64,000 nucleotides of DNA from Thalia democratica. Its lineage: Eukaryota. Made by a program: the position numbers. How positions within the stretch are numbered: position 1 is the stretch's first letter; every line of letters begins with the position of its first letter. The stretch covers positions 26,846,001 to 26,910,000 of the forward strand of contig OZ241826.1 in NCBI GenBank assembly GCA_965202585.1. The letters run 5' to 3'. This document shows, piece by piece, positions 9,001-54,000 of the stretch.

Positions 9001-12000
9001 CCATACTGTAGGTTACCATAAAAAAAAGTAATGTACAGGACTATCTGACCAGGGCTTGTAGTTTTACAAGTCGAAAATCTTACTTAAATAAATATTTTAA
9101 TTATTTTTAAAGCAATCAAAAAAACTATTGAACATTAAAAAAAATCTTTTAGTTTAAATAATACTGAAAAACTTCAGTTTAACTTCACGGCAACTTTAAC
9201 TGATTTTCGTAACTTTTAATTATTGTTAGTAAGTTGTTTTTTGTGAATAATAATTTAATATACTAAATAGGTTTATTTCCTTTTTTCCTTTTAAGTTTTT
9301 TTTTTTAAAAGCTTATTAATGACTAAAATTAAACTTAATGTTTTAAATCGAGCTTTTGATTTAAATTTCTTTTTAGTTTTGATTAAACAAAAACAATGCA
9401 TTTAAGTTTAAAATAAGAGATTTTAAAATAATATTGAAGCATTTTCTTACTACTTGATTTGTAACTAAAAATTGTTTCAAACGAGAGCTGGCTAACTTCA
9501 AACAACAAGCAAAACTAAAAAAAAGGTGTTTTATTTGTATATATATATGGTCTGATAGCTCCTAACAAGTTAATTTCTTTTTATTTATCAATGAAAAAAA
9601 ACTATAAAAAACCTAAGTTTTTATTTATATATTTTTCTTAACTTGAAAAAGGCTTATAAGCGCGCACTTGAAATGTGTGCTCTAAAATACAAAATATTAG
9701 GGCTTAATATAAGCGTGTAATAAATCTTTAATGCTAGAAAACGAATAGAAACCTTTCTAAAACTAAAGAAAACGTTTATCTTTTCTTTCTTATTGAAGTT
9801 ATTGAAAGTGTTGAGTTATTGAACTAACTCATACAGTAATCTTCCTATTGTTTAAGCAGTTCCAATTTCAATCGGTTCAACATGAAGTTTTTATATATAC
9901 TGGTAAATATTATATACTGGTATTTCTAAGGTACGAGCTGCCTGATAGATATGCAAGTTTTGGTTGCAAGCGCAAAAATTCATTTAAGAGAACGATTAGC
10001 GCGTAAGTTGATATTCAAAGATCAGTTTTAATCGTATTTTGTGTTAACCTAGTTTTAAGTGTATTGAATAAGTGCTGGAATATTTCAGGGAACCTAAAAA
10101 AAATTGTATAAAATCGTAATGTGTTTGAAATAAAAAAAATCATCAACGCTTCCGAAGACCCGGGAGAAGCAGAAAAGCACAACAGGATACTGACCAGGCT
10201 GCGAACCGACCCGGAGACGCATTTCTCGCTCGTCCATATGGATAGAAAACTACCAGTTTTAATATTGATGAAGTAATTTACAAGTTAGTCAAGTTAATAT
10301 CTAAGAAAAATTACAACTTATCATTTAAAAAAAACTTTCAAGCTTATACATATTTTCATATATGAAAAATAGTTTAAACAAATACTTAAAAGATATTGTT
10401 TTAATTTTGATATTCCGCTGTGAAAAAAAACTGTCGAAAATTAAGTTTAAGGCGATCTTTAAGTTTTACTTTTTATTTAAGTAGATCCATAACTGGTAAG
10501 CAAAAAAAAAGGTACTTATAAAATTAAATGAAAAATAATATAGTATTAAACAAGGCTTCATTTACTTAAACATCTATGATTTTTAAACAAACAGTAATTT
10601 AAAAAATTAAGTGACTGTTGTTGTTTTCAATATTCATTAACTTTTTTGGTTCAATGATAAATTTTTAAAATTTTATTACAATACAATGTTTCACTCGTTT
10701 AAAAACAACGAGATCTTCAGTTGTTTAAAATCTGTAAAAATTTATGTGATAACAAGTAGGAAGACATTAGGCTAAACTTGAAATAAAAGAAGTTAAAAAG
10801 AAAAAATGTATAACAAAAAACTGAGTAAAATCTAATTAAAACCTATAGTTTAAAGTTATTAGCGTATGATGATTTTAATGTTGCTAGGCTAAATTTAGGA
10901 AAATGCACGTTACTTAATAATTATACAATCTTAAAACTTAAACAAACAAAAAAAAAATATACAATAAAAAATAATTCTACTAACATTTAGTGGCCTTGTG
11001 AAATCTTTAGATAACTAACAAAGAAAAACATCTCTTTAACTAAACCTTTAAGTTAAGTTTACTCGTTTAAAAAAATTTGGCTATTGTATTATGACGTATT
11101 TATATAGTGGTTTAAGTACTTGTATAAATTAAAATAGATATTTTTTTATCAAAACGCTCTTAAGTTTTGAAATAAAGCTTCTTGAAGTGTATACAAGAAC
11201 ATATTAACTCGTTCCTTTTATTTAATGATGTTTCCCCGTCAGCGTTCGCTATTTCCATTTTTTCATAGGAGCAGGTCCTGCAGATTCTCTGCGGTTTCCT
11301 TATGTGTCCGATGTGGTGTAAAATTTCCCATTTGATGTTGTAGTTAGTGTTGTTGCGTTTTAGTTTCCAAATGTTGCGTCAGTTTTTAAACGAGTGAAAC
11401 ATTGTATTGTAATAAAATTTTAAAAATTTATCATTGAATCATTCTCCTTTTTAAGTCGAGAACTTTGATTGCAACCTTTAAAGCAAAAAGTACGCAACTT
11501 TTTTGGTTGCTAATAAAATAGTTTCAGTTCCGATTATGAGTTACGTTATTAGATTTAATAAATAAGAAGTTATTTTAATAAAAAGTTTCATCCGAAGTAA
11601 TTTTTTAGCTACAAAAAAAACTAAAACTTATTTAAAACAAGTTGTAAGTACTGATAAGTAATCTTGTGACAGAAACAAGTCATTATAAATTTAAATTAAA
11701 TTAATTAATAAATTAAAAACCTTAGAAAAATTAAAACAAATACCAATTGAAAATCTGATAGATGAAAAAAAATTTCACGAATTTCACCAAATTTTTTTTT
11801 TTTACGATAATATAGCTGAATAAAATTAGAATTAATTAAGATATCAGTTTTTATTTCAAGTATTACGTTAAATAAGTAAAAGCACAGTTTTAGCCAAAAA
11901 ATTCAAAAAAAAGTTTTTAAATAATACTTTTTTATAAAGTCCTTATTTATATTGCGCTTAAATTAAGTTTTAGTTTTTGTACTTTTTATTCTTTTTTTTT

Positions 12001-51000: not shown

Positions 51001-54000
51001 TACAAATTAAAAGTTATTGATATAAAAAACAACTTAAAACAACAAGCAACCGAAACTTAACACAAATTTTACAGCCAATGTCGACTTGCTAATTTTATTC
51101 AGGTTTTTTAAAAAGAAAATAGGATGTTTATGCAGGCAGTTATGACATCAATATAATTATTTAAACTTTTTTAACTTGTTTTTACTGGGTTGTTGTCTGT
51201 TTGCTGGTGTTATACCTTGTGTTCCTTGCCCTTGTTTGATACCATTTGAACCTTTACTTCTTTCTTTATCATATTTTCTAACTGCGCTGAATTCACTACA
51301 ATTACCGTTCCTGCTTCATCTGTTTGTACTGCTTTTGCTTCTTGCCGTGGTTGTCCTGCTGCTTCTTGCCGTGCTTGTGCTGCTGCTGCTCCTTGCCGTG
51401 GTTGTCCTGCTGCTTCTTGCCGTGCTTGTGCTGCTGCTCCTTGCCGTGATTGTCCTGCTGCTGCTTCTTGCTCTGGTTGTGTTGCTGCTCCTTGCCGTAA
51501 TTGTCCTGCTGATCCTCCTTGTTGTGTTTTATTTCTCTCTTTTACCACCTCAATCTCTTCTTCAACCACTTCGTACAGCTTCTGGACGAGCGACATATGC
51601 GTCTCCGGGTCGGTTCGCAGCCTGGTCATTATCATTTGGTGCTTTTCTGCTTCTCCCGGGTATCCGGGAGCGTTGATGAAGTTCTGCAGAAACACCCTCC
51701 GTTCGTCCCGGAAATCGTCGCCTGACAAAATCTCTGTGAAGGCACGAAATACGTTTTCAAACCTATTCATTTCTGCACACACAACGAACACACACAGTGA
51801 AATTTAAAACCCTTTCAGAAAATGCATCATTTATACTTAAAAAATCAACGGTATAGTCACGTCACAAACAAACGTTAAGTTTTCATTAACTTTTCAACAG
51901 GATTTGTTTTTTTTTAACCAAGGTTTAAAAAAAGACTGCTTTTCGATGTAAGTTCTTTTACTGTAAGCCGCGGGTTAATTTTCATAGACAAAGTTCAGAA
52001 TATTTGTAGTAATCAATAAAAAAACATTCTTTGAATCACATTACTGATACATAAGCAATAATAAAGTACAGTAACCTCTCGCTTATTTACGCACATTGTG
52101 TTAACATAAAAAAAGTGCGTAAAGATACGAGAGGTACCAAATATACTTACTACATCGGCTGTTTTTTGATAATGCTTCTAGTTAAAAGAAGACTTTTAAC
52201 AAATTGTTTACTTTATTTATATAAGTTAAAACAAAAGATAAAACTATACATATTTAAAAAAATAGGATTTAGATTTATATAAATAACAATACTTTTAGAA
52301 AAACTATACTAATTTTAATAAAAAGTAGATTTTATGTTTATCGTTATTTATATGAATTTCAATTCAAGGGCTTTAAACCAATTTTAATCGAGACCATCAG
52401 TTTTAACGCGCAGTTGTGTTCTTCCAAAGCTGTAACTGGTGCTGGTTAGCATTACTGAGAATTGAAGGCAACCTGCGAAAAGTTTCAACGCTTGCTGTGC
52501 AGAGCAAATGTTACAGAAGAAGAACAACTTAAACAAAAAAAAAACGTCAAATGAAGATTAGTGAAACGTTTAGAAAAATACAATTGAGATTTTTGTTAAG
52601 TGTAGACTCTTTACTTATCAAGTATCACTGCTACTTTTTGCTAGGAAGTTTCATTAACTTTTTTTTTAGATGTTTACTTGTATATAGGGCAAGAGTGCTG
52701 TAACACTTAAGTGAGATATAAACTCTCATCATTTCATTATATCTTCATTGTTTAACGCAGTCATATTTCTCTAGAGTTTTAATTTAATCTCTTATTATTA
52801 ACAAAATTTACGATATACTAAGGTATAACTATATGTTTATCAATTAGTCAAAAAACATAAGTTTACAAAATTTAAAGATATAGAGAGGTGAGTTAGCATT
52901 TTAAAACATATTTTAAATTAAAAATATACAATTAAGCTAATTTGTGCAATATTAAAAAAAAAGAAAAATTTTTGAGTTTTTAGAATTCTAATATGCGTAA
53001 CTAAACGAGAGTGCGTAACGTCATAAGTGCGTAAAGATGCAAGAGCTTACTATTCATTTTCAAGCTAAGAGTCTAAATGTATGTTTTTGCCGCTATTTTT
53101 TATACTGTCTTAAAAAGTATGATTTTAGCTGAAAAGTTTACAGAGGCCCGCAAGTTGTTAAATTAAATATTAGCACAGCGAAGCTTCTAATACAAACAAT
53201 ATTTTATTTGAAATGTTCATGTCAATTTTTTTTCTTTAGTTTTGTATAAAAGTTTGTATACAATTGATAGATTAATTTTTTTAAATGACTTAAATATACA
53301 AACGATAAGGCTACCTGTAATACTGTATCAGCTACTTGAGTGATATACATCAAATACGCTCTAAGTATAACTCAAGTTAATTTTGTTTCGTAGTGTGAGC
53401 AATCTCGTTGACAGCTTTTTAGTTTAAATAATCACGTTGTTGTGCAGAACAAAGTTAATATGATTCATGGTAGAAGCGTTTAAAACAACGTAGCAGTCAG
53501 TTTAAATTTTACCAGTTTGCTCATCTGTTTGTCTCATTGCGTGGCATATTCACTCACTGTATATTCAATTGTGTCTTGCGGTCCGGTTGTTTTTTATTTT
53601 AGCTTGTTTAATTTTTAAGACGGGAAACATATGAAGTTCGGCATCAGTTATTACCTCATAGTTTCGCCCGCACATGTTCATTTTAAGCTACCAGTCAACT
53701 GGGGGTATTTTATTATTGCCAAAGTATTCAATGCGTTTCTAAAAATTTTAACAGAACAGTGAACTAATTAGACTTAAAACATAAGGCTGAAAGTTGTAGA
53801 AAGAGTTTTCCCAAACTCGCTTTAGTAAACGCCCCAGGTTGAAGAATACAAAAAAAAAACGGTCGGCGCCACCCCTTTTCAAAACCCAAAAATACCCAGT
53901 GTAGCTCACCGGTTGTGCCCAAGACCTTTTGCCTTTCGACCTTTACCACAAACCCGAGAACAACTGGTTGAGTTTCGGTTTTCCCGTGAAACGAACCGAA

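What the first reader, a model, noticed from the sequence alone, without database searches (positions are those of the whole stretch)
10141..51770. Inverted segmental duplication resolved by reciprocal gene loss (tektin vs orphan gene)
Seen: four collinear inverted blocks link 10.1-16.6 kb with 51.7-47.5 kb. The left copy keeps tektin exons 7-10 but only a 96-bp scrap of the orphan ORF; about 590 bp (50992-51583 equivalent) are deleted at a CCA microhomology near 10234. The right copy keeps the full orphan ORF but retains only tektin exon 7, lacking the 12840-15690 equivalent (exons 8-10). Each copy then took its own insertion (Penelope-like left, TTAA MITE right). Inference: an ancestral tail-to-tail tektin/orphan pair was duplicated and each copy kept a different gene.
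Basis: partly seen in the sequence, partly recalled or inferred. Interest (0 to 1): 0.65.

Follow-up and report, generated by a model that had tools for sequence, protein, structure and literature searches.

The report
Inverted duplication straddling two gene tails
Two inverted copies of one stretch, 31 kb apart in an AT-rich animal genome, each complete a different gene (a tektin-1 gene and a small lineage-restricted gene); this looks more like the footprint of a small inversion than like two whole gene copies that each lost one gene.

Summary
Five collinear inverted blocks link 10140-16579 with 51679-47506 (135-1808 bits; best of 10 shuffles 59.9 bits). I confirmed:
- tektin exons 7-10 on the left and an exon-7 relic on the right
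- a 97-bp scrap of the small ORF on the left
- a 587-bp gap at a CCA microhomology
- a 2848-bp gap on the right
- a TTAA-flanked MITE on the right

Two labels fail. The left 864-bp insert shows nothing Penelope-like: no RT, GIY-YIG or hammerhead, only 60-bp inverted repeats. The 'orphan' has 3 relatives among 1.84 billion representative proteins, so it is a real, lineage-restricted gene.

The tail-to-tail ancestry is sound, but homology stops sharply inside both genes, at ORF codon 30/31 and in tektin intron 6. Each copy keeps only one ancestral flank. No whole second copy of either gene is shown.

The simplest history is an inversion of about 31 kb that duplicated one breakpoint (staggered-break model). 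The redundant gene fragments then decayed. Whole-pair duplication with reciprocal loss needs two more deletions.

Unexplained:
- a 480-bp sub-block only 67-80% identical
- a second inverted repeat pair abutting the left copy

This is an ordinary kind of event.

The parts
10140..16579 (.). Left copy (D) of the duplicated segment, 6440 bp
   Evidence: Self-blastn blocks; sharp ends of homology
47506..51679 (.). Right copy (D'), inverted, 4174 bp
16580..47505 (.). 30926-bp segment between the two copies. It holds tektin exons 1-6 at its left end. It is inferred, not shown, to have been inverted.
   Evidence: Coordinates; the inference rests on the one-ancestral-flank-per-copy pattern
13186..20409 (-). 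Tektin-1-type gene with 10 coding exons: e1 20409-20311, e2 19981-19883, e3 19636-19460, e4 18282-18151, e5 ~17611-17471, e6 16961-16734, e7 15872-15777, e8 ~15358-15284, e9 ~13752-13636, e10 ~13263-13186 including the stop. Searched exon by exon, not joined.
   Evidence: Pfam PF03148 hits on 8 exon ORFs of this gene (e2-e9; E 6.9e-18 to 8.1e-4). tblastn of P0001-P0003 covers all residues of the 402-aa relative. GT-AG sites lie beside the hit ends. Relative P0003 matches PDB Tektin-1 best (E 2.3e-106).
10140..10236 (+). 97-bp relic of the small ORF (codons 31-63), in frame, with 7 of 31 whole codons changed, all non-synonymous
10234..10236 (.). CCA microhomology at the junction of the 587-bp deletion in the left copy
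   Evidence: Junction read-out; blast blocks overlap by 3 bp
10237..10636 (.). Block B2 (~50992-50599): 94.9% identical over 394 aligned bases
10637..11500 (.). Left-only 864-bp insert with 60-bp inverted repeats near its ends (10647-10706 / 11441-11382, 98.3%). A 13-base direct repeat lies at 10639-10651 and 11496-11508. One related copy lies at 60979-61254. No coding domain found; not shown to be Penelope-like.
11501..12839 (.). Block B3 (~50562-49215): 92.6% identical over 1319 aligned bases, 11 gap events
12840..15687 (.). Left-only 2848 bp holding tektin exons 8-10 and the 3' end of the gene; missing from the right copy
15688..15956 (.). Block B4 (~48924-48650) with tektin exon 7: 95.2% identical over 269 aligned bases
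15957..16436 (.). Sub-block B5a (~48098-47652): only 67-80% identical per 100 columns, with abrupt edges; unexplained
16437..16579 (.). Sub-block B5b (~47651-47506): 95-97% identical, up to the sharp end of homology in tektin intron 6
   Evidence: (I10)
48099..48644 (.). 546-bp MITE, right copy only, with terminal inverted repeats and TTAA on both sides (48095-48098, 48645-48648). Relatives at about 17.9-18.9, 21.1-22.9 and 35.1-36.0 kb.
48740..48835 (+). Relic of tektin exon 7 in the right copy: open frame, 3 of 96 bases differ from the left exon (2 amino-acid changes), flanking splice-site bases identical
   Evidence: (PF03148 E 6.1e-7)
48925..49214. Right-only 290 bp standing where the left copy has 2848 bp. 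A search of exactly this stretch against the whole window found nothing at E<=0.01; the looser left-versus-right comparison gave two weak hits of 59-62 bp overlapping its ends.
50996..51582 (.). 587 bp present only in the right copy (deleted on the left). Holds ORF codons 64-186 and 214 bp beyond the stop codon.
51210..51770 (-). Small single-exon gene (the 'orphan'): 186 codons plus stop. It has a conserved N-terminal ~80 aa, a 24-nt (8-aa) repeat array at 51336-51516, and a conserved C-terminal ~50 aa.
   Evidence: Relatives: P0004 (55% over 107 aa, same start), P0005 and P0006 (C-terminal part; P0006 has the same end).
9761..10139 (.). Repeat A, abutting the left copy. Its inverted partner lies at 38203-38574 (91.9% over 371 aligned bases). 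It ends in an A-run; no target-site duplication seen.
38203..38574 (.). Repeat A', the inverted partner of 9761-10139. It lies 8931 bp from the right copy.

Best explanation
An ancestral convergent pair stood at one locus: a tektin-1 gene and a small lineage-restricted gene, 3' end to 3' end. One rearrangement inverted about 31 kb. One of its breakpoints was staggered across the stretch from codon 31 of the small gene to tektin intron 6. That stretch (D) was therefore copied and now sits, inverted, at both ends of the inverted segment.

Tektin kept working with the copy that moved with its exons 1-6 (left). The small gene kept working with the copy that stayed beside its first 30 codons and promoter (right). 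The spare pieces were never whole genes. These are the small gene's codons 31-186 on the left and tektin exons 7-10 on the right.

The spare pieces then decayed:
- a 587-bp microhomology (CCA) deletion on the left
- a 2848-bp loss with 290 bp of filler on the right

Separately, an 864-bp inverted-repeat element entered the left copy and a TTAA MITE entered the right.

Shown: the blocks, their sharp ends, the gene contents, the direction of the 587-bp deletion, and the MITE insertion.
Inferred: the inversion itself and its one-step origin. A two-step route, in which an inverted copy was pasted in and the two copies then recombined, gives the same picture.
For: 1. Blocks are collinear, inverted and far above chance. 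They occur only as a pair within the window.
2. Each gene straddles one edge of the duplication.
   - The ORF runs unbroken across 51679/51680, and its relative P0004 is colinear from the same start Met through residue 107.
   - The tektin exon hits run in order on both sides of 16579/16580, with no exon copy elsewhere except the exon-7 and exon-1 relics. I did not splice exons 6 and 7 to test that junction.
   - So the right copy's outer flank and the left copy's inner flank are both ancestral.
3. The other two flanks show no homology. Nothing matching 51680-54500 or 46500-47505 lies elsewhere in the window at E<=1e-4. No tektin exon 1-6 relic lies near 47.5 kb. The ends are abrupt.
4. Blocks B1-B4 are evenly diverged, 90.7-95.2% identical, 1940 of 2079 aligned bases in all. 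This fits one event.
5. The model is in print. In Drosophila, 17 of 29 fixed inversions carry inverted duplications of non-repetitive breakpoint sequence. These are often partial genes, about 88% identical, and are ascribed to staggered breaks (PMC1885836, passages read).
Against: - No outgroup or second assembly could be consulted, so the uninverted ancestral order is not shown.
- The duplicated stretch (at least 4.2-6.4 kb) is longer than any in the Drosophila set, where none exceeds about 1.9 kb aligned.
- Sub-block 15957-16436 is only 67-80% identical. A single young event does not predict that.
- A second inverted pair (A/A', 91.9%) abuts the left copy but lies 8.9 kb from the right copy.
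- A third tektin piece, an exon-1 copy at 1-199, runs off the window.
- The history may therefore have more steps than one.
Confidence: 0.5

Rival explanations
1. The whole tail-to-tail pair (all of tektin plus all of the small gene) was duplicated in inverted orientation. The left copy then lost the small gene and the right copy lost tektin (reciprocal loss).
For: The present gene content is complementary. Two internal deletions that fit gene decay are real: 587 bp on the left and 2848 bp on the right.
Against: - It needs two further deletions that removed everything from inside the duplicate out to or past its outer edges: tektin exons 1-6 on the right, and the ORF's first 30 codons plus upstream on the left.
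- No relic of either is found.
- The homology ends are clean.
- That makes three events where one suffices.
Confidence: 0.2
2. One complex replication-based rearrangement (template switching at microhomologies) laid down several partial copies at once: D/D', A/A' and the tektin exon-1 copy at 1-199. No simple inversion was involved.
For: Three low-copy repeat pairs of similar divergence lie in 52 kb:
- D blocks, 91-95% identical
- A, 91.9% identical
- the exon-1 copy, 90.3% including gaps
. A abuts D directly at 10139/10140. There is a 3-bp microhomology at one junction and 290 bp of filler at another.
Against: - Copy-paste by template switching leaves the source locus intact with both ancestral flanks. 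Here neither copy has both.
- The CCA junction is a deletion within one copy, not a copy junction.
- The extent of the exon-1 copy is unseen.
Confidence: 0.15
3. Assembly artefact: two haplotypes or a fold-back read joined in one contig.
For: A 100% identical 2164-bp tandem duplication at 39387-43717 shows that the assembly holds at least one suspiciously perfect repeat.
Against: - The window has no N.
- The copies differ by 5-8% and by four large, copy-specific indels.
- The 31 kb between them is not mirrored, and the A pair has a different centre of symmetry.
- Alleles would not differ by losing different genes.
Confidence: 0.05
4. The blocks are members of dispersed repeat families, not a segmental duplication.
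For: Divergence is unequal in one sub-block (67-80% against 88-97%). True repeat families (the MITE, and the element at 10637-11500 / 60979-61254) lie inside or beside the copies.
Against: - The five blocks keep order and orientation over 4-6 kb.
- They include a tektin exon with its splice sites and part of a conserved ORF.
- They have no third copy in 64 kb, whereas the MITE family matches at least five separate places in the window (17.9-18.9, 21.1-21.9, 22.3-22.9, 35.1-36.0 and 48.1-48.6 kb).
Confidence: 0.03

Closest known systems
Inverted duplications at inversion breakpoints (staggered-break model; Ranz et al. 2007, PMC1885836)
   Same: Non-repetitive sequence, including partial genes, is present once at each end of a segment in inverted orientation. 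Identity is around 90%. The spare gene pieces decay by substitutions and deletions. Each copy keeps one ancestral neighbour (paper passages; window).
   Different: The inversion is inferred here, not seen against an outgroup. The duplicated stretch is 4.2-6.4 kb, against at most about 1.9 kb aligned in that study. One sub-block is far more diverged.
Reciprocal (divergent) loss of duplicated genes after segmental duplication (concept recalled from the literature, not from a call)
   Same: Two copies now hold complementary genes.
   Different: That concept needs two complete duplicates at the start. Here the preserved homology covers tektin exons 7-10 of 10 and ORF codons 31-186 of 186 only.
Inversion by recombination between inverted low-copy repeats (NAHR)
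   Same: Two inverted repeats of several kb, about 93% identical, bracket 31 kb. A crossover between them would also leave each copy with one ancestral flank.
   Different: This needs an earlier copy-paste duplication as a separate step. Nothing here tells the two routes apart.
TTAA-targeting MITEs (piggyBac-type target; the superfamily label is recalled)
   Same: 546 bp, terminal inverted repeats, TTAA on both sides, an empty site in the paralogous copy, and several relatives in the window.
   Different: No transposase is present in the window, so the parent family is not identified.
Penelope-like elements (PMC8557442 and PMC4209133, abstracts in the search listing only)
   Same: At most, terminal repeats that can be inverted (recalled from the literature, not from a call).
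   Different: No reverse transcriptase, no GIY-YIG endonuclease and no hammerhead motif in or beside the 864-bp insert, or anywhere in the window.

Membership tests
Low-copy inverted segmental duplication | Paired blocks of 1 kb or more at about 90% identity or more (threshold recalled), collinear and inverted | tested here: met
   Block B3 has 1319 aligned bases at 92.6%. Five blocks lie in one order and orientation. Shuffles give at most 59.9 bits.
Low-copy inverted segmental duplication | Not a many-copy dispersed repeat | tested here: inconclusive
   Only two copies in the 64-kb window. The rest of the genome could not be searched with these tools.
Reciprocal gene loss after duplication of a whole gene pair | Both copies once held both complete genes | tested here: not met
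   Homology ends inside the ORF (codon 30/31) and inside tektin intron 6. There are no relics of the missing parts. Later clean removal cannot be excluded without an outgroup.
Reciprocal gene loss after duplication of a whole gene pair | Complementary retention today | tested here: met
   Tektin is intact exon by exon only on the left. The ORF is intact only on the right.
Inversion with breakpoint duplication (staggered breaks) | Inverted copies of originally unique sequence at the two ends of one segment | tested here: met
   The copies hold an exon and part of a conserved ORF.
Inversion with breakpoint duplication (staggered breaks) | Each copy keeps one ancestral flank, on opposite sides | tested here: met
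   The left copy is continuous with tektin exons 1-6. The right copy is continuous with ORF codons 1-30. The other flanks are unrelated.
Inversion with breakpoint duplication (staggered breaks) | A relative or outgroup shows the uninverted order with a single copy | not testable with these tools
TTAA-target MITE | Terminal inverted repeats, TTAA duplication, empty paralogous site, no coding capacity, several copies | tested here: met
Penelope-like element | Telomerase-like reverse transcriptase ORF | tested here: not met
   0 of 513 stop-free ORFs matched an RT family at E<=0.01 (<=0.05). The 513 are 396 ORFs of at least 38 aa window-wide and 117 of 30-49 aa in the copies. Very decayed remains shorter than 30-38 aa per frame would be missed.
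Penelope-like element | GIY-YIG endonuclease | tested here: not met
   Same scans, no match
Penelope-like element | Hammerhead ribozyme motif in the terminal repeats | tested here: not met
   Rfam at gathering threshold on the whole window gave 0 matches. At E<=1 on 9500-16700 it gave 0 matches. On 47300-52000 it gave one unrelated weak match.
Tektin family (PF03148), tektin-1 type | Match to the family profile along the protein; closest solved relative | tested here: met
   Eight exon ORFs of the left gene, plus the exon-7 relic on the right, match PF03148. The hits cover profile positions 17-366 of 383. Five reach the family cut-off on their own; the rest are short. Relative P0003 (86-100% per exon) is closest to Tektin-1 chains (E 2.3e-106, against 2.3e-80 for the next type). 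The exons were not joined.

The most novel reading that the evidence does not exclude
The three repeat pairs of like age record one germline burst of rearrangement: D/D', A/A' and the tektin exon-1 copy at the window's edge. In that event both breakpoints of a 31-kb inversion were duplicated. The order A-D ... A'-D' is what two staggered breaks predict. The inversion left a tektin-1 gene and a young lineage-restricted gene each dependent on a different arm of a 4-6 kb inverted repeat. Such a repeat could still flip the segment in living populations.
Probability: 0.1. Interest if true: 0.45.

Novelty: new member of a known kind. Interest (0 to 1): 0.3.

Why it matters
This is a clean, readable case of how a small rearrangement can copy the shared tail region of two convergent genes and leave dead gene pieces that look like reciprocal gene loss. 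An annotator would otherwise call a tektin pseudogene and a truncated 'orphan' without seeing that they are two halves of one event. It also shows that the small ORF is a real, conserved gene of narrow distribution. Beyond that it is an ordinary kind of structural change, and nothing here opens a new question.

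Tried and rejected
I scanned stop-free ORFs instead.
2. Penelope-like reading: no RT, GIY-YIG or hammerhead. Rejected as unsupported.
3. Repeat A as a simple retroposon insertion into the left ORF copy: it ends in an A-run, but I saw no target-site duplication, and homology to the right copy does not resume on its far side. Left open.
4. The 8931-bp spacer 38575-47505 as a mobile or LTR-type element that would make A/A' its terminal repeats: no terminal repeats beyond A, and no element-type Pfam domain. 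Not supported.
5. Conserved RNA in the 95-97% sub-block 16437-16579: no Rfam match. Its identity is no higher than several other 100-bp windows. Dropped.
6. Function of the small protein:
   - no Pfam family
   - no PDB sequence match at E<=1
   - no usable Atlas hit
   - the AlphaFold model was too poor (mean pLDDT 42.2), so I ran no fold search
8. A third copy of the diverged sub-block: none in the window.

Full report
**What the window is.** It has 64000 bases, is 74% A+T and has no N. Small GT-AG exons and a tektin-1-type gene point to an animal genome. I do not take it for human.

**Checking the observation.** Self-comparison gives five collinear, inverted blocks. A more sensitive run extends the last one to 15960~48097.

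| Left | Right | Identity |
|---|---|---|
| 10140-10236 | 51679-51583 | 90.7% |
| 10234-10636 | 50995-50599 | 93.8% |
| 11501-12839 | 50562-49215 | 89.5% with gaps |
| 15688-15956 | 48924-48650 | 93.1% |
| 16004-16579 | 48039-47506 | 74% |

- Scores are 135-1808 bits. Ten locally shuffled windows gave at most 59.9 bits, and none gave a match of at least 90 bp at 85% or more.
- The left copy spans 6440 bp and the right 4174 bp. 30926 bp lie between them.
- Within the window each block has only its partner.

**The tektin gene.** I searched the gene exon by exon and did not join the exons.
- Eight stop-free ORFs on the minus strand match Pfam PF03148 in order, over profile positions 17-366 of 383.
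- Three relatives from the protein search were mapped with tblastn onto ten exons from 20409 down to 13186. P0001 is 100% identical over exon 6; P0002 and P0003 are more distant. The hits cover every residue of the 402-aa P0003.
- GT-AG sites lie at the hit ends.
- P0003 is closest to Tektin-1 chains in the PDB (E 2.3e-106; next type 2.3e-80).
- Exons 7-10 lie inside the left copy: exon 7 (15872-15777) in a shared block, exons 8-10 in the left-only 2848 bp (12840-15687).
- The right copy holds exon 7 only (48740-48835, plus strand). It differs at 3 of 96 bases (2 amino-acid changes), with identical splice-site flanks. It has 290 unrelated bp (48925-49214) in place of the 2848.

**The 'orphan'.**
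- The minus-strand ORF 51770-51210 has 186 codons. Its GC content is well above background, 40% against about 25%.
- A 24-nt repeat array at 51336-51516 keeps several frames open.
- It is not a strict orphan.
  - P0004 (150 aa) aligns from the same start Met over 107 residues at 55% identity.
  - A full HMMER pass over 1.84 billion representatives found 3 proteins at E<=0.001: P0004, P0005 and P0006.
  - P0005 covers residues 79-179.
  - P0006 covers residues 135-186 and has the same last residues.
- Both ends of the protein are therefore conserved in a few unnamed sequences. It is a real gene of narrow distribution.
- Its function stays unknown:
  - no Pfam family
  - no PDB match
  - no usable Atlas hit
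  - a poor model, pLDDT 42.2, so no fold search

**What the left copy keeps of the ORF.**
- It keeps 97 bp (10140-10236), codons 31-63, still in frame. Seven of 31 whole codons are changed, all non-synonymous.
- The next 587 bp (50996-51582) are missing. The two flanks of the gap both end in CCA.
- P0004 reads straight across that point, so this is a deletion in the left copy, not an insertion in the right.

**Insertions.**
- Right: a 546-bp MITE (48099-48644) with terminal inverted repeats and TTAA on both sides. The left copy shows the empty site, and relatives lie at 17.9-18.9, 21.1-22.9 and 35.1-36.0 kb.
- Left: an 864-bp insert (10637-11500).
  - It has 60-bp inverted repeats near its ends (98.3%).
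  - A 13-base direct repeat flanks it.
  - One relative lies at 60979-61254.
- Nothing makes the left insert Penelope-like.
  - 0 of 513 ORFs scanned matched a reverse transcriptase, GIY-YIG or transposase family.
  - Rfam gave no hammerhead.
  - The defining features are taken from the abstracts of PMC8557442 and PMC4209133 in the search listing.
- I found no virus-like coding stretch anywhere in the window by these scans. Remains shorter than 30-38 codons per frame would escape them.

**The key point for interpretation.**
- Homology ends abruptly at both ends. One end is 10139/10140 = 51680/51679, inside the ORF at codon 30/31. The other is 16579/16580 = 47506/47505, inside tektin intron 6.
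- The ORF is continuous across its edge only on the right, and P0004 shows that continuity is ancestral.
- Tektin exons 1-6 sit beside exons 7-10 only on the left.
- The other two flanks match nothing. There is no tektin exon 1-6 relic near 47.5 kb. Nothing matches 51680-54500 or 46500-47505 elsewhere.
- So each copy keeps exactly one ancestral flank, on opposite sides.
- A plain copy-and-paste duplication would leave one copy with both ancestral flanks.
- One event gives the observed picture directly: an inversion of the intervening 31 kb with a staggered break across the shared stretch.
  - That stretch is then present, inverted, at both ends.
  - Both genes stay whole throughout.
  - The spare pieces are never functional.
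- This mechanism is described for Drosophila. There, 17 of 29 fixed inversions carry inverted duplications of non-repetitive breakpoint sequence. These are often partial genes, about 88% identical, and decay by substitutions and small deletions (PMC1885836, passages read; its supplementary tables were not available).
- A listing abstract (PMC4965816) likewise treats inversions as a source of segmental duplications.
- A two-step route, an inverted pasted copy followed by recombination between the copies, gives the same end state.

**Evidence against, or left open.**
1. No outgroup could be examined, so the inversion is an inference.
2. The duplicated stretch is longer than those in the Drosophila study, which reach at most about 1.9 kb aligned.
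3. Divergence is not uniform.
   - Blocks B1-B4 are 90.7-95.2% identical, 1940 of 2079 aligned bases.
   - 15957-16436 is only 67-80% identical per 100 columns, with abrupt edges.
   - It is followed by 143 bp at 95-97%.
   - It has no third copy in the window.
   - It may be a repeat-family member overwritten from an unseen copy, or an older layer. I cannot tell.
4. A second inverted pair, A (9761-10139) and A' (38203-38574), is 91.9% identical.
   - A abuts the left copy directly.
   - The order A-D ... A'-D' is what two staggered breaks would give.
   - But 8931 bp separate A' from the right copy.
   - That spacer has no terminal repeats and carries ORFs of its own.
5. A copy of tektin exon 1 with about 100 bp upstream lies at 1-199. 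It is in direct orientation, 90.3% identical, and has an 8-base gap in the coding part. It runs off the window. The region has therefore seen more than one duplication.

**Artefact.** This is unlikely.
- There is no N.
- The copies differ by 5-8% and by four large copy-specific indels.
- The interior is not mirrored.
- The two repeat pairs have different centres.
- The 100% identical tandem repeat at 39387-43717 should still be checked with long reads.

**Verdict.** The ancestral tail-to-tail pair is supported. 'Reciprocal loss of whole duplicates' is less economical than an inversion-linked partial duplication. This is a new instance of a known kind of event, of modest interest.

**Not checked.**
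- Any other eukaryotic genome.
- The rest of this genome.
- The contigs behind P0001-P0006.
- The closed collections metagenome contigs and viral contigs.
- I did not use the one scan of genome contigs, because it holds bacteria and archaea only.
- One protein search and one Atlas call were left unused.

Noticed in passing
window 39387-43717: Perfect (100%) tandem duplication of a 2164-bp unit. It doubles ORFs that encode 32-residue (96-nt) repeats. It is either very recent or an assembly artefact.
   Followed up: partly
window 1-199 (partner 20301-20507): Direct copy of tektin exon 1 plus about 100 bp upstream, 90.3% identical, with an 8-base gap in the coding part. It runs off the left edge, so a further tektin copy or pseudogene may lie just outside the window.
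   Followed up: partly
window 9761-10139 and 38203-38574: Two-copy inverted repeat (91.9%) ending in an A-run, with no target-site duplication seen. It abuts the left copy of the duplication.
   Followed up: partly
window 15957-16436 and 47652-48098: Sub-block of the duplication that is only 67-80% identical, between neighbours of 91-97%. Both edges are abrupt, and one lies at the MITE insertion site.
   Followed up: partly
window 17918-18887, 21056-22949, 35098-35982: Several nested or palindromic copies of the same MITE family as the one at 48099-48644. Two lie in tektin introns.
   Followed up: no
window 31675-31860 (-): Exon-sized ORF matching the ILEI (FAM3-type) domain PF15711 (E 8.6e-6, 26.6 bits, just under the 27-bit cut-off). 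Probably part of another gene inside the segment between the copies.
   Followed up: no
window 59825-60084: Near-perfect hairpin: 116-nt arms, 97% complementary, 28 nt apart.
   Followed up: no
window 51146-51804: Long stop-free stretches in three reading frames here (two on the plus strand, one on the minus), because of a GC-rich 24-nt repeat array. Only the minus-strand frame has relatives.
   Followed up: yes
P0001 against window exons 7 and 8: The closest tektin relative (identical over exon 6) differs from the window gene by one residue in exon 7 and one in exon 8. At the exon-7 site the right-hand relic keeps P0001's residue and the left gene does not.
   Followed up: no
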